Positions 1 through 9,751 of a stretch of DNA of 9,751 nt are shown here, piece after piece. A model generated the notes under the pieces. It was given only the letters and a program-made list of their open reading frames with translations, ran no database searches and was not told the origin of the DNA. Position 1 is the stretch's first letter; every line of letters starts with the position of its first letter. Origin of the DNA: a virus (Duplodnaviria; Heunggongvirae; Uroviricota; Caudoviricetes). The position numbers and the translations under genes are program-made. The DNA lies in the IMG/VR virus record IMGVR_UViG_2802429241_000003, one strand, 5' to 3'.

Positions 1-69
1 CGCTCGGTTTCGGGTATAACCTTAGGAAATTTTTTCCCACCTGTAAAGCACTTTTTATATAAATCTATA
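1..69. repeat. Terminal redundancy: 1-69 is identical to 9683-9751, consistent with a circular or circularly permuted 9682-bp unit
   Basis: Direct comparison of the first 69 bases (cgctcggtttcgggtataacc...ataaatctata) with the last 69 bases of the window: identical. Confidence 0.9.
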
Positions 70-88
70 ATTATATATTTATAGATTT
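57..88. repeat. AT-rich palindromic repeat AAATCTATAA-N8-TTATAGATTT; contains the reverse complement of the 16-bp unit TTATAGATTTATATAA found beside parA
   Basis: 61-70 aaatctataa is the reverse complement of 79-88 ttatagattt; 55-70 ttatataaatctataa is the reverse complement of ttatagatttatataa at 3818-3833 and 4607-4622. Confidence 0.55.
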
Positions 89-5104: not shown

Positions 5105-5128
5105 TAAAAAAGGCCCCCGAAGGGGCCT
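5105..5128 (-). terminator. Intrinsic terminator for the minus-strand small ORF
   Basis: On the minus strand: hairpin ggcccc-ttcg-ggggcc (7 bp with the flanking A-T pair) followed by TTTTTT (5105-5110); on the plus strand the hairpin lacks a downstream U-tract. Confidence 0.6.
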
Positions 5129-5133
5129 AATCG

Positions 5134-5256
5134 CTACTTGCTGCTAATGTTTATCGTCACATTCAGAGCGTTATCAGTAATCTTCCAACCCTCCCCATGT
5201 GGCGTAAACAAAGCTCCAGTAACAACGATAAAAATACACATACAGTATTTTTTCAT
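5134..5256 (-). CDS. 40-aa small hydrophobic protein, candidate type I toxin (MKKYCMCIFIVVTGALFTPHGEGWKITDNALNVTINISSK)
   Basis: Internal ATG of the 60-aa track ORF with AAGGG SD about 8 nt upstream; hydrophobic N-terminal stretch; strong terminator immediately after the stop; candidate -10 TATAAT (minus strand, 5411-5416) about 150 nt upstream. Confidence 0.35.
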   Translation of the reverse strand: MKKYCMCIFIVVTGALFTPHGEGWKITDNALNVTINISSK

Positions 5257-5320
5257 TGTATGGCCCTTACAGGCCGTTTCACGGCATCCCCACCGACGAA
5301 AATGACGCGAGAGCAAGCAC

Positions 5321-5340
5321 GCTGTTTGTGCCTGCGTGGT
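5321..5340. repeat. Copy A of a 20-bp direct repeat (gctgtttgtgcctgcgtggt); lies in the predicted 5' leader of the small-ORF mRNA, where it is read as its complement
   Basis: 19 of 20 identity with 5570-5589; flanking sequence shows a diverged duplication of about 80 bp (ctgaaag and gcgaatc shared). Confidence 0.6.
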
Positions 5341-5569
5341 ACGGCAAGTGGATAATCCTTTCCTGAAAGTCGGTGCCCGGTTGCGAATCGGCGAAAAGGC
5401 CCCAAGCCATATTATACGTCATCCCCTTCATAATGAAGGAATAAAAAACGCTTTTATTACATAGAATTACACGTAAATAAGTTAAAAACCTTCATTTTGC
5501 ATGAGCTAATGAGCTAAATTTTTTATATGAATAGTGGACTATTCACCTAAATTGGGTAAGAATGTAGTT

Positions 5570-5672
5570 GCTGTTTGTGCTTGCGTGGTTGTATTAGTAC
5601 AACGACGTTATGCTGAAAGGACCGCGAATCCGATCGGCACGAAAGAACCGTCCTCAATAGGGCGGTTTTTTT
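5570..5672 (+). ncRNA. Candidate antisense small RNA (about 100 nt) beginning with repeat copy B and ending at an intrinsic terminator
   Basis: Copy B gctgtttgtgcttgcgtggt at 5570-5589; internal hairpin gttgta-ttag-tacaac; terminator ccgtcct-caat-agggcgg plus T7 at 5648-5672. A weak candidate promoter TGGACT-17-AAGAAT at 5535-5563 would start transcription near 5570. The 5' end is not established. Confidence 0.3.
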
Positions 5673-5676
5673 GTTT

Positions 5677-6406: not shown

Positions 6407-6505
6407 ATGCGCCATTGGTGGACACTTTCCGAGCCGTAGCAAAATCTACGGTCGGGATTGGCGTCCCGATTGCACAATGGCGCATACCGCGTTAGCGGTT
6501 TTTTT
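6407..6505 (+). ncRNA. Structured element: 11-bp long-range stem enclosing two adjacent 6-bp hairpins, followed at once by an intrinsic terminator; candidate leader/attenuator or small RNA
   Basis: Outer stem 6407-6417 aatgcgccattg pairs with 6475-6485 caatggcgcat; hairpins ccgtag-caaaat-ctacgg and tcggga-ttggcg-tcccga; terminator accgc-gtta-gcggt plus T7 (6486-6505). TTGACA at 6397-6402 lies just upstream. Confidence 0.3.
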
Positions 6506-6607
6506 ATGCGTAAAGCACTGCTACACCCAAATTATGGTGGGGCGTGCGGGGGCGGAGAAATCCGCGCCGGGTTTGTCATTGTGCCGGTTACGCCAACCCT
6601 GTACGTC

Positions 6608-6641
6608 TCACCACCATATTGATTGGCGTCATTGGTGGTGA
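6608..6641. promoter_or_regulatory. Inverted repeat TCACCACCA-N16-TGGTGGTGA in the promoter region of the antirepressor-like operon
   Basis: 9-bp perfect arms at 6608-6616 and 6633-6641; a third ATTGGTGG half-site at 6414-6421; lies 27-60 bp upstream of the ATG at 6668. Confidence 0.4.
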
Positions 6642-6667
6642 TAGTTCCTTTAATCGGAGATATCACA

Positions 6668-6859
6668 ATGACAAACCTACCCCATGACTATTACGTCAAC
6701 CTCGTAAAGATCCTTCTCAAGAAAGCCTCATACGCCGATAAATTCCGCCTGGCTGAAATCATAGAGCGCGAAGCTATGCGCATCGCCAGCAACGATAACG
6801 CTGTTTCTGACGCAAAAATCTCCCTCGTAACCAAAGTAGTTATGGGAGGTGCAAAATGA
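6668..6859 (+). CDS. Hypothetical small protein (63 aa), translationally coupled to the downstream antirepressor-like gene
   Basis: ATG at 6668 with GGAGA SD 8 nt upstream; stop TGA overlaps the ATG of the next gene (ATGA at 6856-6859). Confidence 0.45.
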   Translation: MTNLPHDYYVNLVKILLKKASYADKFRLAEIIEREAMRIASNDNAVSDAKISLVTKVVMGGAK

Positions 6860-8124
6860 AAACGCTTCCGACCGTTAACACCCTACAGCCTATCCTGCAT
6901 AACCAAATCCCTGTCATTACTACCGAGTTACTGGCACAGCTTTACGGCGTATCTCCTGTACGCATTCGACAAAATCATCATGAGAATAAGGAACGCTTCA
7001 TTGAAGGTAAGCACTACTTCAAAATTGAAGGTAACGAACTTCGAGAGTTAAAGCACAAAGTGACTCAAGATAATGATGTGAAGAACAAAAACTCTTTAAG
7101 AGATTCAGTTAATGACGCCCCCTCTAAAAGAGAGAGCGTCGAGCACAGAGTAGTTTTAAACTACTCTGTTAACCACAAGGTAACTAAAAGTCACTCTGTG
7201 AAAATCGCCCGTAACGTTCGCTCCCTCATTCTCTGGACAGAACGCGGGGCTGCACGTCACGCTAAAATGCTCGAAACTAACCAAGCGTGGGATGTGTTCG
7301 AACGGCTGGAAGACTGCTACTTCAACCAGAACGCGCAAACGGCCGCGACCGTTACCGTCTCGCCAAACAATGCTCGTGAGGTTGTCGATACGCTCAACGC
7401 CAAACCGATGTTTTACATTAAGGTGTGCAACAACGAGCCACTCACAACCTCAGCCGATGTTGCCCAGGCATTCAGCACCACAAACAATTCCATCGTTATG
7501 GCCATCGATGCGCTACGCATTCCTCGCACGGCTGCGGCACGTCATTTCTTTAAAGAGCAACGACCGCTGGAAGGAAGCGACCGCGAAATAACAATCTATC
7601 GCATGACAAAAGACGGATTTACCTTGCTCATGGAAAGTATCGACGGTCCAGGCGTGAAGGATATCAAGCTGGCCTACATTGAAGCCTTTAACGCTATCAG
7701 CAGCGTGTTAAAAACACAGTACGAGCGCGATCTGGCTAAACGACTGTACCAGGAAAAAACGATTATCCGCGCGGCAACAGAGCATAATCGGCTATTAACG
7801 GAACCGAACTACAGGAAGGAACTAATCAAGGAGTTTGACAAGGCAACAGGGAAAACCAAAGCGACGCTAAATCTGCCAGCAATGACTCAGGAAAATGTGA
7901 TATCAGCCTTACTTCTTGATCTGCTCAGAAACGCCAGAGCACTTATCAGCTTTGACGAAAACCTGAATCCTCAGCTCAAGCTACTACCACCGACAGGCAA
8001 AGTAGTCGACCAAGCTGATCACAACAGCATACTCAGCGTTCTGGATGCAAACCTGCCAGCCAGGACACTACAGGATCTGATAAAAACATGTGCTGATAAG
8101 CTGGCACAGAAAAGCAGACCATAA
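6856..8124 (+). CDS. Antirepressor-like phage regulatory protein: N-terminal ORF6N-like domain, central Rha-like domain, unassigned C-terminal region
   Basis: 422 aa. N-terminal ITTELLAQLYGVSPVRIRQNHHENKERF...ILWTERGAARHAKMLETNQAWDVFERLEDCYF resembles ORF6N; central RMTKDGFTLLMESIDGPGVKDIKLAYIEAFNAI resembles the Rha family (TRDGF..L.M.F.G.....K..YI.AFN). Strong GGGAGG SD 6 nt upstream. Confidence 0.75.
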   Translation: MKTLPTVNTLQPILHNQIPVITTELLAQLYGVSPVRIRQNHHENKERFIEGKHYFKIEGNELRELKHKVTQDNDVKNKNSLRDSVNDAPSKRESVEHRVVLNYSVNHKVTKSHSVKIARNVRSLILWTERGAARHAKMLETNQAWDVFERLEDCYFNQNAQTAATVTVSPNNAREVVDTLNAKPMFYIKVCNNEPLTTSADVAQAFSTTNNSIVMAIDALRIPRTAAARHFFKEQRPLEGSDREITIYRMTKDGFTLLMESIDGPGVKDIKLAYIEAFNAISSVLKTQYERDLAKRLYQEKTIIRAATEHNRLLTEPNYRKELIKEFDKATGKTKATLNLPAMTQENVISALLLDLLRNARALISFDENLNPQLKLLPPTGKVVDQADHNSILSVLDANLPARTLQDLIKTCADKLAQKSRP

Positions 8125-8128
8125 CTAC

Positions 8129-8160
8129 AAGGGGCTACGGCCCCTTACTCTTTTCTCTCT
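8129..8160 (+). terminator. Intrinsic terminator after the 422-aa gene
   Basis: Hairpin aaggggc-tacg-gcccctt followed by a pyrimidine/U-rich tract (actcttttctctct). Confidence 0.6.
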
Positions 8161-8359
8161 TATCAACGCCAGAGACGTTCTGAAAATCCTTTCGAATAGC
8201 GTCAGCATCACGCGCCAAGCCCATACTGGAACGCGTCGCCATATGACGAAAATGATCAACTGCCGGAAACAAAGAAATAATGGACCCAATAGCTTGCAGC
8301 AAACTCGCTTTTCTACGCATCATAATTCCACCATAACCGATAACCACCCTTCAGACACA

Positions 8360-8374
8360 CCCCCCCCTCCCCCC
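8360..8374. repeat. Homopolymeric tract C8-T-C6 in a non-coding region
   Basis: ccccccccTcccccc read directly; on the minus strand G6-A-G8. Confidence 0.9.
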
Positions 8375-8861
8375 ATACAGGGTGCCCTTTACCGGAGTTC
8401 CGGCCCCTTCTCAAAAGCATCAAAAAAAGCTCGAGATCGAGTACCGGAACTCATGCCACCAGATAGCTCCACATCGTTTCCAATGCTTCGCCGCCGTGTG
8501 CGCCCTGTGGCCCACAATCATGCCATTGGTCGTCTGATATACCTTCTTCTGCTCATAGAGCACAGGCGAGTTGTCGCACTCCTGCCTTTCTCAGACTCGA
8601 CTTAGTTTAGATCGCTGTTCCTGGCTTGCGTCAGCACACTTTCCCCTTGTACGCATACCCGCGCGCCACTTCGCCCAAAAACACCGAACCCAACGAAGTG
8701 GCAAAGACAACGACACGAGCGTGAGTCTGAAATGGGCACCAGTAAAAAAGGGGTTGCAGGCGCAAAAAGATTTGATTATCTTTAGACGCAAGAAAGCCGC
8801 CCCAATCAAGAGGTGTCTTTTTAAATCCAGCCTACCAAGCAAGATTTAAATTTCAGACTGA

Positions 8862-8890
8862 AAACCGCCCGGCAAGGCGGTTTTTGTCTT
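8862..8890. terminator. Bidirectional intrinsic terminator (ends the HTH gene operon on the minus strand and any rightward transcript on the plus strand)
   Basis: aaaccgcc-cggcaa-ggcggttt hairpin with a T-run on the plus side (8881-8885) and, in reverse complement, a U-tract on the minus side. Confidence 0.65.
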
Positions 8891-8933
8891 TCTGGCGCTT
8901 ACATTACACCACCATAAAACGATCCGTAAAGGA

Positions 8934-9206
8934 TCATTTGATCCCTTGTTCCAATTCTGACGACACTTTAACCTTTTCCCATACAAGGGTTTGCAGCCTT
9001 AACAGAATCGCGTCTTTATCAAGGTGTGAAAGATCCTTCACCATATCGTCAAACGACAGAACGCGAATGGCCATCTCAATGACCCTCGGCGGCTCCCCCT
9101 TCTCATATCGCTTATATGTAGCCAACGATATCCCAAATTCTTCGGCGGCTCGCTCCTGCGTCCAGTTCATCCCACGACGCCATAATTTCAATTCATAACC
9201 CGTCAT
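8934..9206 (-). CDS. XRE-type HTH DNA-binding protein (90 aa), antitoxin-like or autoregulator-like
   Basis: ATG at 9206 preceded by GAGGAGGG SD; LKLWRRGMNWTQERAAEEFGISLATYKRYEKGEPPRVIEMAIRVL fits an XRE HTH; the track's longer version starts at a TTG inside the palindrome. Confidence 0.6.
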   Translation of the reverse strand: MTGYELKLWRRGMNWTQERAAEEFGISLATYKRYEKGEPPRVIEMAIRVLSFDDMVKDLSHLDKDAILLRLQTLVWEKVKVSSELEQGIK

Positions 9207-9234
9207 AGCACCCTCCTCGCACAATATTAACACT

Positions 9235-9261
9235 CGCAAAGTGTCAAAATGACACTTTGCG
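9235..9261. promoter_or_regulatory. Perfect 27-bp palindrome CGCAAAGTGTCA-AAA-TGACACTTTGCG between the 126-aa gene and the HTH gene; candidate operator overlapping a TTGACA -35 on the minus strand
   Basis: 12-bp perfect arms; minus-strand TTGACA at 9242-9247; lies about 30 bp upstream of the HTH gene ATG. Confidence 0.5.
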
Positions 9262-9269
9262 CATTGTGT

Positions 9270-9650
9270 TTACTTAACGAGGAATAAAAATGGTTTATTG
9301 TTCGGCGGTGTAATCGGGGCTGGCTCGCTTTTGCTCATGCGATCAGTGTACCAGGCCAACTCCTTGTCAAAGTAAGCCTGATTAAAATAGGCCATGAATG
9401 TAGTTTCAAATCCATAACGACCGCTAATACGCAGCATCTGATTGCCGTTCTCTGTTTCCAGATATACCTGGGCACGTTCCTGATTCTCCTTCAGCCAGGT
9501 TAAAGCCTCATCGCATGAGGACACACGATACTCATCATCGTAGCAGTCATCGATGCGGCTTGAGGAAGAACGGCAAATCACGCCAACAGAACCAGCCAGG
9601 ATAGTTTGAATTTTAAGGAAAGCGTTTTTGCGGATTTTAATCATGCTCAT
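9270..9650 (-). CDS. Hypothetical protein (126 aa), first gene of the two-gene cassette
   Basis: ATG at 9650 with GGAGA SD 8 nt upstream; no recognisable motif; followed by the palindrome and the HTH gene. Confidence 0.5.
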   Translation of the reverse strand: MSMIKIRKNAFLKIQTILAGSVGVICRSSSSRIDDCYDDEYRVSSCDEALTWLKENQERAQVYLETENGNQMLRISGRYGFETTFMAYFNQAYFDKELAWYTDRMSKSEPAPITPPNNKPFLFLVK

Positions 9651-9682
9651 CGGGTTATCTCCGGTTTAACCAGAGCGGGTAT

Positions 9683-9751
9683 CGCTCGGTTTCGGGTATA
9701 ACCTTAGGAAATTTTTTCCCACCTGTAAAGCACTTTTTATATAAATCTATA
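9683..9751. repeat. Second copy of the terminal redundancy (identical to 1-69)
   Basis: Base-by-base identity with 1-69. Confidence 0.9.

What the first reader, a model, noticed from the sequence alone, without database searches (positions are those of the whole stretch)
8161..8933. About 770 bp without a convincing gene, containing a C8-T-C6 homopolymer and bounded by two terminators
The track ORFs here are low-complexity or run through the poly-C tract and through terminator hairpins. The region is enclosed by the terminator at 8129-8160 and the bidirectional terminator at 8862-8890. Such a long non-coding stretch in a 9.7-kb element is a candidate for the unassigned origin, a non-coding RNA, or a recombination site. 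The poly-C/G tract could undergo slipped-strand length variation or form G-rich structures on the minus strand.
Basis: inference. Interest (0 to 1): 0.5.

Follow-up and report, generated by a model that had tools for sequence, protein, structure and literature searches.

The report
Conserved structured non-coding block in phage-plasmid
The "empty" 770 bp holds a small orphan gene plus a 585-bp non-coding block that is better conserved than the neighbouring genes in a family of ~48-kb E. coli/Salmonella phage-plasmids and looks like an undescribed structured RNA ending in a G6AG8 tract.

Summary
In detail: C8-T-C6 is at 8360-8374, hairpin terminators flank the region, and no convincing long gene lies between. 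Two premises are wrong. The window is not a 9.7-kb element. It is the segment between two copies of a ~110-bp repeat in ~48-kb myovirus phage-plasmids (E. coli ATCC 25922 plasmid, Yersinia phage vB_YpM_41), whose repA lies outside it. The left 190 bp is an annotated 62-aa orphan ORF (8135-8323, minus strand) belonging to the exchangeable antirepressor module.

The finding is 8348-8933. This block is unannotated in every relative and matches no Rfam family. Its ORFs are broken, or lack protein-level constraint, in other lineages. It is 89-91% identical in three divergent lineages (83% in a fourth with a 50-nt deletion); in Salmonella the flanking coding DNA is ~70-78%. Compensatory and G-U-type substitutions support several hairpins, on the minus strand only, and that lineage has cleanly deleted one hairpin.

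Best reading: a ~540-nt structured minus-strand RNA, co-directional with the upstream 126-aa/HTH operon and ending at the G6AG7/8 tract. Its function is unproven. My committed guess (~0.2) is R-loop or primer formation for replication. The tract shows no length variation across 24 distinct sequences. No convincing promoter was found.

The parts
8116..8146 (.). Hairpin terminator shared by the convergent antirepressor gene (+, stop at 8122-8124) and the 62-aa ORF (-, stop at 8135-8137 in the hairpin loop)
   Evidence: Terminator scan, (+ 8129-8146; - 8143-8116); sequence
8135..8323 (-). 62-aa orphan ORF (MMRRKASLLQ...KSKGP) with a GGTGGA Shine-Dalgarno-like site 5 nt upstream. It belongs to the ORF6N/Rha antirepressor module and is absent from about one third of relatives
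   Evidence: Annotated as WP_000986262.1 in RefSeq. Only homologues >93% identical among 5.8 billion proteins. 5 synonymous and 4 non-synonymous SNPs plus an in-frame 6-nt duplication. No Pfam hit; weak PHROG hit at E=0.005
8347..8348 (.). Homology breakpoint between the exchangeable antirepressor module (left) and the conserved backbone block (right)
   Evidence: Records with other ant modules align only from query position 223/224, which is window 8347/8348; alignments
8348..8933 (-). Conserved non-coding block: candidate ~540-nt structured RNA on the minus strand
   Evidence: 62 plasmids and 72 E. coli genomes carry it at 98-99.8% identity with no annotation. 88.9-91% identity in the Salmonella, L022/L032 and L037 lineages and 83% in L041, against a calculated ~70% for 8934-9751 and 73-80% for other backbone coding DNA in the Salmonella loci. 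ORFs are broken in other lineages. Covariation; strand comparison
8360..8374 (-). G6AG8 tract on the minus strand (C8TC6 on plus), at the 3' end of the conserved block
   Evidence: variants G6AG7 and G6AG5TG in relatives
8395..8452 (-). Long irregular hairpin (21 pairs) with a U-rich apical loop
   Evidence: Helix 20: 99.4% paired, with 3 pairs showing G-U<->A-U or G-C changes that are valid only on the minus strand
8471..8486 (-). 6-bp hairpin, loop GGAA in the model (the wider GGAAAC is invariant in all lineages), nested in a larger stem (8455-8501)
   Evidence: Helix 19: 2 pairs with compensatory double changes and 3 with one-sided G-U changes; three different stem versions in the E. coli, Salmonella and L037 lineages
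8665..8702 (-). 13-bp hairpin, the best-supported helix. Lineage L041 has precisely deleted it within a 50-nt deletion
   Evidence: Helix 8: 4 pairs with double changes, 3 one-sided, 99.3% paired; deletion seen
8859..8886 (.). GC-rich hairpin (CCGCC-N6-GGCGG flanked by A and T runs). It is a strong terminator for plus-strand transcripts. On the minus strand it is a weak terminator after the HTH gene, or the first stem-loop of the block RNA
   Evidence: invariant in all lineages
8754..8782 (+). Weak promoter-like site TTGCAG-N17-TATCTT preceded by an A6 run. If active it would give a ~100-nt plus-strand RNA ending at the 8859-8890 terminator, antisense to the 5' part of the minus-strand RNA (inference)
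   Evidence: Read from the sequence. The hexamers are invariant, while two spacer positions (8765, 8772) vary between lineages. It falls below the threshold of both promoter scans
8898..8927 (-). Weak promoter-like site TTTACG-N18-TAATGT between the HTH stop codon and the hairpin (inference only)
   Evidence: Read from the sequence. The only variable positions (8912-8916) lie in the spacer. It falls below the scan thresholds
8934..9650 (-). Upstream co-directional operon: 126-aa protein (9270-9650, phrog_8090) and 90-aa HTH_3 protein (8934-9206, phrog_6962). It is preceded by the repeated promoter/operator-like element at 9647-9751

Best explanation
Window 8348-8933 encodes a previously undescribed, family-specific structured non-coding RNA of roughly 500-560 nt, read on the minus strand. 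That is the same direction as the repA ... relE/HTH ... 126-aa ... HTH-90 gene array upstream and the 62-aa ORF downstream.

The RNA would start either by read-through of the weak minus-strand terminator after the HTH gene or at a weak promoter at 8898-8927. It folds into a series of hairpins: 8889-8855, 8702-8665, 8587-8564, 8501-8455 with 8486-8471 nested inside, and 8452-8395. It ends at the G6AG7/8 tract (8374-8360). In relatives that lack the 62-aa ORF, a terminator hairpin follows the tract immediately.

Shown: nucleotide-level purifying selection, absence of coding constraint, and strand-specific base-pair covariation. Inferred: that the element is transcribed, and where its ends lie.

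For function I commit to the reading I find most likely, but only at about 0.2. The G-rich 3' end forms a persistent RNA-DNA hybrid or hybrid G-quadruplex on the C8TC6 template. This stops transcription and leaves a primer for host-polymerase-driven (lytic or run-away) replication. In logic this resembles ColE1 RNA II and mitochondrial CSB2. The putative ~100-nt plus-strand RNA (8790-8890) would then act as an RNA I-like antisense brake. The remaining probability for an RNA gene goes to an unknown trans- or cis-acting regulatory role.

The confidence of 0.6 applies to 'structured minus-strand RNA element', not to the replication mechanism.
For: (1) Conservation exceeds that of the coding flanks. 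The block is 88.9% identical in the Salmonella loci, while window 8347-9751 as a whole is 77.9% (a calculated ~70% for 8934-9751 alone) and other backbone segments are 73-80%. The encoded HTH protein is only 71% identical.
(2) The block is non-coding. There are 1-nt indels between lineages, and five of the seven tested ORFs of 40 aa or more are interrupted by stop codons in other lineages and a sixth (8389-8517, -) shifts frame near its end. The one that stays open (8420-8563, -) has 11 of 47 residues changed by about 17 nucleotide changes. There are no Pfam or PHROG hits.
(3) Structure. Both strands fold better than shuffles (z = -2.6 and -2.55). In sliding alignment windows the minus strand is clearly better, for example 8496-8378 with z = -3.3 against 0.0, and 8775-8657 with -3.0 against -1.6.
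(4) Covariation on 24 distinct sequences. Of 154 local pairs, 99.4% are paired. Six pairs carry compensatory double changes against 2.0 +/- 1.1 in shuffles (0 of 500 reach the observed value) and 0-2 in slid controls.
(5) Strand. For the same pairs, 39 pair states are valid only on the minus strand (G-U type), against 6 valid only on the plus strand. This count leans toward the minus strand, because the structure was derived on it.
(6) Modularity. Lineage L041 has a 50-nt deletion that removes the whole 8702-8665 hairpin.
(7) Context. All neighbouring genes from repA to the 62-aa ORF lie on this strand.
(8) For the priming idea. G6AG7 and G6AG8 are also the two commonest variants of human mtDNA CSB2, where the tract terminates transcription through a hybrid G-quadruplex (PMC5027508). 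The ATCC 25922 plasmid annotation lists no replication protein other than RepA. In P1 the lytic replicon kilA-repL/oriL sits directly downstream of c4-icd-ant, which is the same relative position.
Against: No transcript evidence was available. No sigma-70 promoter passes the scans on either strand in 7900-9751 or in a relaxed scan of 8100-9100. A hairpin terminator separates the block from the upstream operon.

Phylogenetic depth is shallow, with about five lineages, so covariation rests on few independent events, and the long-range helices are not stable between folding settings. Part of the conservation excess could reflect recombination of the block between lineages.

Against the priming mechanism specifically: there is no similarity to ColE1 RNA I or RNA II (Rfam RNAI gives no hit in the block). 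One lineage has an interrupted tract, G6AG5TG. Nothing downstream of the tract is conserved. G-quadruplex-dependent termination has been shown for mitochondrial and T7 polymerases, not, to my knowledge, for E. coli RNA polymerase. Cumulative GC skew of the whole plasmid rises monotonically and marks no origin here.
Confidence: 0.6

Rival explanations
1. A DNA-level cis-acting site rather than an RNA. Candidates are a single-strand initiation or primosome-assembly signal, a lytic origin, a packaging site, or another protein-binding region that works as folded single-stranded DNA or as duplex DNA.
For: The block is flanked by terminator hairpins on both sides and has no convincing promoter, which suggests it is transcriptionally insulated. 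G-T wobble is tolerated in single-stranded DNA hairpins, so the strand-specific covariation does not by itself separate RNA from ssDNA. The block occupies the position that the lytic replicon has in P1. The motif CCGGAAC/GTTCCGG recurs at 8391-8403 and 8444-8452.
Against: There are no iterons or other repeat families typical of an origin. The block is the most G+C-rich part of the neighbourhood (0.50-0.54), so it has no AT-rich unwinding region. Known ssi/pas signals are about 70-130 nt (from memory), not 585 nt. Conservation covers loops and linkers as well as stems. The plasmid origin is expected next to repA.
Confidence: 0.15
2. The block is a long 5' leader or 3' UTR with no function of its own. 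It would be a regulatory leader for whatever cargo gene sits downstream (here the 62-aa ORF), or a structured 3' tail that stabilises the 126-aa/HTH mRNA and blocks convergent transcription from the antirepressor operon. The C-rich plus strand would make read-through ant transcripts good Rho substrates.
For: In the window type, no terminator separates the block from the 62-aa ORF. The block lies between two convergent operons. GC skew on the plus strand is -0.26 to -0.35 across the 300-nt windows covering 8101-8700.
Against: About one third of relatives keep the block but lack the ORF and have a terminator directly after the tract. Insulation or Rho loading needs composition, not 89-91% sequence identity and maintained helices.
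Confidence: 0.12
3. There is no function. The block is conserved only because the family is young, or because this segment was recently exchanged between lineages. The poly-C tract would be a scar at a recombination joint.
For: Most members are >98% identical over the whole genome. The module-exchange breakpoint lies 12 nt from the tract. Mosaicism is evident in the antirepressor module.
Against: Several divergent lineages (Salmonella, L022/L032, L037, L041) show the same pattern of 83-91% identity in the block against 70-80% in the flanks. Their substitutions are concentrated in stems and are compensatory. A neutral segment would not keep 99.4% of predicted pairs.
Confidence: 0.08
4. The region contains a hidden protein-coding gene: a small protein, or a gene with a frameshift.
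For: The 47-codon frame 8420-8563 (-) stays open in all lineages. The 62-aa ORF at the left end is probably real.
Against: Nearly every nucleotide change in the 47-codon frame changes the amino acid, and several of those changes are the compensatory stem changes. It starts with GTG and has no clear Shine-Dalgarno site. There are no family hits. Other frames carry stops or indels in relatives.
Confidence: 0.03

Closest known systems
ColE1/pMB1 RNA II pre-primer with RNA I antisense control (established knowledge, from memory)
   Same: A structured, non-coding plasmid RNA of about 520-550 nt. A G-rich RNA segment faces a C-rich template near the 3' end. There are several stem-loops at the 5' end, overlapped by a possible ~100-nt antisense RNA whose last hairpin is a terminator. 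No plasmid-encoded initiator is needed.
   Different: There is no sequence or covariance-model similarity (Rfam RNAI does not hit the block). Promoters are not convincing. The element already has a RepA replicon and a ParA partition system. Priming is untested.
Human mitochondrial conserved sequence block 2 (CSB2) at OriH
   Same: The tract is identical: G6AG7 or G6AG8 on the RNA-like strand, the two commonest human variants (PMC5027508). It lies at the end of a non-coding transcribed region. In mitochondria it causes premature termination through an RNA/non-template-DNA hybrid G-quadruplex and R-loop and so makes the replication primer (PMC5027508 and the abstract of PMC6317783).
   Different: The polymerase is different (single-subunit POLRMT or T7 against E. 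coli RNAP). The mitochondrial transcript is ~120 nt and unstructured, not ~500 nt and structured. The downstream T-tract context differs. The identity of a 15-nt low-complexity motif may be coincidence.
Phage P1 immI-adjacent lytic replicon (PkilA-kilA-repL, oriL)
   Same: It sits immediately downstream of a C4 RNA-icd-antirepressor operon in a plasmid prophage. The window has the same C4, c4-a1b1 and isrK-like elements at 6420-6618.
   Different: P1 uses a protein initiator, RepL, with oriL inside its gene, read in the same direction as ant. Here the block is non-coding, on the opposite strand, and has no sequence similarity to P1.
Large structured ncRNAs of phages and plasmids in Rfam (such as ROOL, GOLLD, ryfA)
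   Same: Several hundred nucleotides long, multi-hairpin, carried on mobile elements, function largely unknown.
   Different: No Rfam 15 model matches the block at E<=1. The family is restricted to one enterobacterial phage-plasmid lineage.

Membership tests
ColE1-type RNA II / RNA I replicon | Antisense RNA I with three stem-loops detectable by the Rfam RNAI model (RF00106) opposite the 5' end of the primer RNA | tested here: not met
   The cmscan at E<=1 gave no RNAI hit in 8161-8933. The only RNAI hit is a sub-threshold chance match at 5576-5673 (23.4 bits against a gathering score of 47)
ColE1-type RNA II / RNA I replicon | Sigma-70 promoters for the primer RNA and for the antisense RNA | tested here: inconclusive
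   Neither scan reports a site at the positions needed for the primer or the antisense RNA: one search found none in 7900-9751, and the relaxed scan listed only low-scoring sites elsewhere. Only weak candidates exist (TTTACG-N18-TAATGT on the minus strand, TTGCAG-N17-TATCTT on the plus strand), with invariant hexamers and variable spacers
ColE1-type RNA II / RNA I replicon | RNase H-processed RNA-DNA hybrid at the origin, and Pol I-dependent autonomous replication of the fragment | not testable with these tools
   Needs cloning of 8300-8950 into an ori-less vector, polA and rnhA hosts, and 3'-end mapping
Mitochondrial CSB2-type G-quadruplex terminator/primer site | A discontinuous G-run (G5-6 A G7-9) on the non-template strand downstream of a promoter | tested here: inconclusive
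   G6AG8 is present at 8374-8360 (-), with G6AG7 in most relatives. That matches the common human variants. The upstream promoter is not established
Mitochondrial CSB2-type G-quadruplex terminator/primer site | Transcription termination and R-loop formation at the tract | not testable with these tools
   Needs in vitro transcription with E. coli RNAP, with and without 7-deaza-GTP, and DRIP or S1 mapping in vivo
Phase-variable homopolymer (slipped-strand contingency locus) | Tract length differs among closely related isolates | tested here: not met
   Among 24 distinct sequences from plasmids, viral and metagenome contigs, the differences are base substitutions (C/A at 8360; one G>T), not length changes. 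The single 1-nt shortening in Salmonella is offset by a 1-nt insertion 8 nt away. Within-population heterogeneity cannot be seen in assemblies
Iteron or DnaA-box replication origin | Tandem or dispersed direct repeats (iterons), with an adjacent AT-rich region | tested here: not met
   The repeat finder gives only two-copy matches of chance size. G+C is 0.50-0.54 in the block, higher than in the neighbouring sequence
Protein-coding gene | An open frame preserved across lineages, with an excess of synonymous change | tested here: not met
   For 8348-8933, frames are broken or change mostly non-synonymously. For 8135-8323 (-) the test is inconclusive: 5 synonymous against 4 non-synonymous changes and one in-frame indel
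Any curated RNA family (Rfam 15) | A covariance-model match | tested here: not met
   No hit in 8161-8933 at E<=1

The most novel reading that the evidence does not exclude
A temperate phage-plasmid carries a protein-independent, transcription-primed replication origin. A ~520-nt structured pre-primer RNA would end at a G6AG7/8 tract identical to mitochondrial CSB2. There it would form a hybrid G-quadruplex or R-loop on the C-rich template that stops E. coli RNA polymerase and primes host DNA polymerase, with a short antisense RNA setting lineage specificity. This would be a bacterial counterpart of mitochondrial OriH priming and a new kind of lytic (or run-away) origin. It could also explain how the 9.7-kb repeat-bounded segment might persist as a circle without repA.
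Probability: 0.15. Interest if true: 0.85.

Novelty: new variant of a known kind. Interest (0 to 1): 0.55.

Why it matters
These ~48-kb phage-plasmids are common. They occur in 72 of 5,426 complete E. coli genomes, including the reference strain ATCC 25922, and in Salmonella, Klebsiella and E. albertii. Yersinia pestis is recorded as the host of three phage isolates.

Their most conserved non-coding segment has no annotation and matches no RNA family. If it is an RNA gene, it adds a large structured RNA to a well-studied host, and genetics to test it are readily available. If it primes replication through a CSB2-like G tract, it would give a tractable bacterial model for R-loop and G-quadruplex primer formation, and it would explain how a phage with no recognisable replication proteins other than RepA amplifies its genome.

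The finding also carries a practical caution. Contigs bounded by the ~110-bp repeated promoter element can be mistaken for small circular elements.

Tried and rejected
- **Rfam.** An E-value scan of the whole window found nothing in the region.
- **tRNA/tmRNA.** None found.
- **Protein families.** Pfam and PHROGs gave nothing significant for eight ORFs inside the block.
- **62-aa ORF.** A search of 5.8 billion proteins found only near-identical copies.
- **Distant DNA search in phages.** Only the three Yersinia phage records of the same family matched.
- **Viral-contig scans.** Two scans with conserved 20-21-mers returned the same nine contigs already found through the HTH protein.
- **More distant relatives.** Loci in Serratia and Providencia, plus more distant hits, reached through the HTH protein lack the block by blastn, nhmmer and a covariance model of the 3' domain.
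- **CsrA-sponge idea.** GGA motifs are not enriched: 9 observed against 12.7 expected.
- **C4 antisense RNA target.** Only 9-10-nt chance complementarity was found.
- **Trans-antisense target elsewhere on the plasmid.** No complementary (minus-strand) match exceeds 15 nt.
- **Xer/cer-like site.** GCGTACAA at about 8648-8655 resembles a XerC arm, but no XerD arm follows. I rejected this by eye.
- **Sigma-54 and P2-type late promoter motifs.** Spacing is wrong, judged by eye.
- **GC-skew origin mapping.** Skew is monotonic over the whole 48-kb plasmid and so uninformative.
- **Global long-range fold.** It is unstable between settings, so only local helices are reported.
- **Literature.** I found no description of this phage-plasmid family. 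pSLy3 turned out to be an SSU5-type group and is unrelated.
Full report
**What the window is**

The 9,751-base window is not a self-contained element. Megablast finds it, collinear and 96-98% identical, inside 47-52-kb circular, non-mobilizable plasmids of E. coli and E. albertii, and the same family includes Salmonella and Klebsiella plasmids. It also lies in three Yersinia phages (vB_YpM_39, 41 and 44).

The full annotation of the E. coli ATCC 25922 plasmid (48,488 bp) shows a myovirus-type phage-plasmid. It has terminase, portal, capsid, sheath, tube and baseplate genes, an invertible tail-fibre segment, holins, a ParA partition gene and a plasmid RepA. repA lies about 2.5 kb beyond the right end of the window.

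The first 69 nt of the window are identical to its last 69 nt. The underlying repeat is ~105-113 bp and occurs three times in direct orientation in the 48-kb plasmids, each time just upstream of an operon. So the window is exactly the segment between two adjacent repeat copies. It is either an assembly product that looks circular or a recombination circle.

**Checking the observation**

The C8-T-C6 tract is at 8360-8374. It is unique in the window and never arises in shuffles. Terminator-like hairpins are found at 8129-8146 (+), 8143-8116 (-) and 8859-8886 (+). The right-hand hairpin scores as a terminator only on the plus strand.

The region is not entirely gene-free. 8135-8323 (-) is a 62-aa ORF with a Shine-Dalgarno-like GGTGGA, and RefSeq annotates it as hypothetical protein WP_000986262.1. 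It has only near-identical homologues (>93%) among 5.8 billion proteins and no Pfam family. Its polymorphisms are 5 synonymous, 4 non-synonymous and one in-frame 6-nt duplication. It is probably a real orphan gene, though that is not proven.

This ORF belongs to the exchangeable antirepressor module. In about a third of the relatives, homology with the window begins only at 8347/8348. Those elements carry a different ant gene whose terminator directly abuts the poly-C tract.

**The conserved block, 8348-8933**

This block is present in 62 PLSDB plasmids, in 72 of 5,426 complete E. coli genomes, and in IMG/VR and metagenome contigs. In the annotated E. coli-type and Salmonella records I examined, no feature is annotated inside it.

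In the Salmonella lineage the block is 88.9% identical to the window, whereas the adjacent HTH/126-aa genes are about 70% and other backbone genes 73-80%. The HTH protein itself is 71% identical. Two further lineages (L022/L032 and L037) show 90-91%. A fourth (L041) shows 83% because of a 50-nt deletion.

The block is not protein-coding. Single-base indels separate the lineages. Six of the seven ORFs of 40 aa or more are interrupted or frame-shifted in other lineages. The one that stays open (8420-8563, minus strand) has 11 of 47 residues changed by about 17 nucleotide differences. No ORF matches Pfam or PHROGs. No Rfam family matches at E<=1, and there is no tRNA or tmRNA.

**Structure and strand**

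Both strands fold better than dinucleotide shuffles (-191.7 kcal/mol, z = -2.6; -143.1 kcal/mol, z = -2.55). In sliding alignment windows with column-shuffle controls, the minus strand is consistently the more significant. Examples are 8496-8378 (z = -3.3 against 0.0), 8775-8657 (-3.0 against -1.6) and 8815-8697 (-3.7 against -2.3).

I tested a structure made only of local helices on 24 distinct sequences. It has 154 pairs that are 99.4% paired. Six pairs show compensatory double changes, against 2.0 +/- 1.1 in shuffles (0 of 500 reach the observed value) and 0-2 when partners are slid by 1-3 columns.

- The best-supported helix is 8702-8665: 13 pairs, four with double changes and three with one-sided changes.
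- Helix 8486-8471 has 6 pairs, three different stem versions in three lineages, and an invariant GGAAAC loop region.
- Helix 8452-8395 has 21 pairs.

Many of the one-sided changes are G-U<->A-U or G-C switches, which would be C-A mismatches on the plus strand. Over the same pairs, 39 pair states are valid only on the minus strand, against 6 valid only on the plus strand. The structure was derived on the minus strand, which biases this count, but the three helices above are also predicted in mirror form on the plus strand and still favour the minus strand.

Lineage L041 has removed the whole 8702-8665 hairpin in one 50-nt deletion. That is the behaviour expected of a modular RNA stem-loop.

The caveats are important. 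There are only about five independent lineages. Long-range pairings change with folding settings. And G-T wobble is also tolerated in single-stranded DNA.

**Context and likely transcription**

On the ATCC 25922 plasmid, every gene from repA through relE/HTH, the 126-aa gene, the 90-aa HTH gene and the 62-aa ORF lies on the strand that corresponds to the window's minus strand. A minus-strand RNA is therefore co-directional with its neighbours.

The operon upstream (9650 to 8934) is preceded by the thrice-repeated promoter/operator-like element. I infer from the sequence that this element carries a palindrome and a TTGTTT-N17-TATAAA or TTTACA-N17-TAAGGT promoter-like site. That suggests a repressor-controlled, induction-responsive operon.

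No sigma-70 promoter passes the scans within 7900-9751. Two weak candidates have invariant hexamers and variable spacers: minus-strand TTTACG-N18-TAATGT at 8927-8898, and plus-strand TTGCAG-N17-TATCTT at 8754-8782. The plus-strand one, ending at the strong plus-strand terminator at 8859-8890, would give a ~100-nt RNA antisense to the first three stem-loops of the minus-strand RNA. Those include the only strongly lineage-variable, covarying hairpin, at 8849-8821. All of this paragraph is inference.

**The tract**

On the minus strand the tract reads G6AG8 in the window and three other sequence types. It reads G6AG7 followed by T in most relatives, G6AG7 with a compensating nearby insertion in Salmonella, and G6AG5TG in L041. 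There is no sign of slipped-strand length variation between isolates.

The tract sits at the 3' end of the conserved block, 12 nt from the module boundary. In ORF-less relatives a terminator hairpin follows it directly. G6AG7 and G6AG8 are also the two commonest variants of human mitochondrial CSB2 (37% and 35% of 45,197 sequences). [quoted passage not shown] The resulting R-loops provide the primers at OriH (abstract of PMC6317783).

**Mechanism**

What is shown is a non-coding, selectively constrained element whose pairing pattern is strand-specific. I therefore rate 'structured minus-strand RNA' at about 0.6.

For function I commit, at about 0.2, to transcription-primed replication. A ~520-nt structured pre-primer would end in an rG:dC-rich hybrid or G-quadruplex at the tract, analogous to ColE1 RNA II and to mitochondrial CSB2, and a short antisense RNA would act as a brake. 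Three things favour this.

- The ATCC 25922 plasmid annotation lists no replication protein other than RepA.
- The size and layout resemble the RNA II/RNA I arrangement (that arrangement is cited from memory).
- In P1 the lytic replicon kilA-repL/oriL lies directly downstream of c4-icd-ant, and the window carries the same immI-type RNAs (C4, c4-a1b1, isrK) at 6420-6618.

Several things count against it. There is no homology to ColE1 RNAs. The promoters are unconvincing. One lineage has an interrupted tract. Nothing is conserved downstream of the tract. GC skew is uninformative. G-quadruplex termination by E. coli RNA polymerase is not established.

**Rivals**

- A DNA-level cis site, such as an ssi/pas signal, origin or packaging site (0.15).
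- A leader, 3' UTR or insulator without a function of its own (0.12).
- No function: conservation through recent exchange between lineages (0.08).
- A hidden small protein (0.03).

**Novelty and interest**

No curated RNA family, annotation or paper that I could find describes this block. I found no description of the phage-plasmid family itself in the searches I ran.

The kind of thing is known: a structured ncRNA on a mobile element, possibly a primer RNA. This representative has no detectable relatives outside one enterobacterial lineage, and it carries an unusual CSB2-identical tract. I rate it a new variant of a known kind, with interest 0.55. The most novel reading that the evidence does not exclude, a CSB2-like R-loop origin in a phage-plasmid, has probability about 0.15 and would merit about 0.85.

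Noticed in passing
window 1-69 and 9683-9751 (repeat extends over 9647-9751 plus 1-~80): The window's two ends are an exact 69-nt direct repeat. The ~105-113-bp unit occurs three times in direct orientation in the 48-kb plasmids, in ATCC 25922 at about 16.2, 25.9 and 32.5 kb. Each copy lies just upstream of an operon (the 126-aa gene, the DUF3560 gene and a hypothetical gene). The window is therefore a repeat-bounded segment that mimics a circular 9.7-kb element.
   Followed up: partly
window 60-88 (and the copy next to 9751; L001 12640-12690): A palindrome, AAATCTATAA-N7-TTATAGATTT, lies inside the repeated element and overlaps promoter-like hexamers. It looks like a repressor operator controlling three operons, in the style of the dispersed C1 operators of P1.
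   Followed up: no
window 5106-5404 (-): A full-length match to Rfam ryfA (136 bits, E=1.4e-35), a ~300-nt RNA otherwise known from enterobacterial chromosomes, sits between the partition genes and the XRE repressor gene of the phage-plasmid.
   Followed up: no
window 6420-6618 (+): There is a P1-type immI leader. Rfam c4-a1b1 matches at 6420-6472 (41.7 bits, just under its gathering score of 46.7). isrK (6433-6505) and C4 antisense RNA (6530-6618) match above threshold. A 14-nt C4-complementary site at 6664 lies inside the listed TTG-start ORF 6623-6859 (icd-like position) and just before the shorter 63-aa ORF annotated in relatives. The antirepressor (6856-8124) is an ORF6N + Rha fusion.
   Followed up: partly
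L033 (NZ_CP009073.1), whole 48,488 bp: Cumulative GC skew rises monotonically around the entire plasmid (G>C on the window's minus strand everywhere, whatever the gene orientation). No turning point marks an origin or terminus.
   Followed up: no
L046:2424-2989 (metagenome contig ERZ791802 NODE-7666): One metagenome variant has a 22-nt deletion (window ~8582-8603) that cuts through two predicted helices. This is unlike the clean hairpin deletion in L041. It may be a defective copy or an assembly error.
   Followed up: no
window 8934-9206 (-); plasmid hits H153-H168: The 90-aa HTH protein has ~42% identical homologues in thousands of conjugative enterobacterial plasmids, including 63.6-kb plasmids of Klebsiella pneumoniae and Serratia marcescens. 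There they lie next to a gene annotated as a restriction endonuclease. This hints at a controller-type regulator family.
   Followed up: no
H214, H215, H223-H225 (e.g. NZ_AP025749.1 3310-5179): Some family members carry an insertion of about 570 bp, with an extra hypothetical gene, within the stretch matching window 8348-9650 (the block plus the HTH-90 and 126-aa genes).
   Followed up: no
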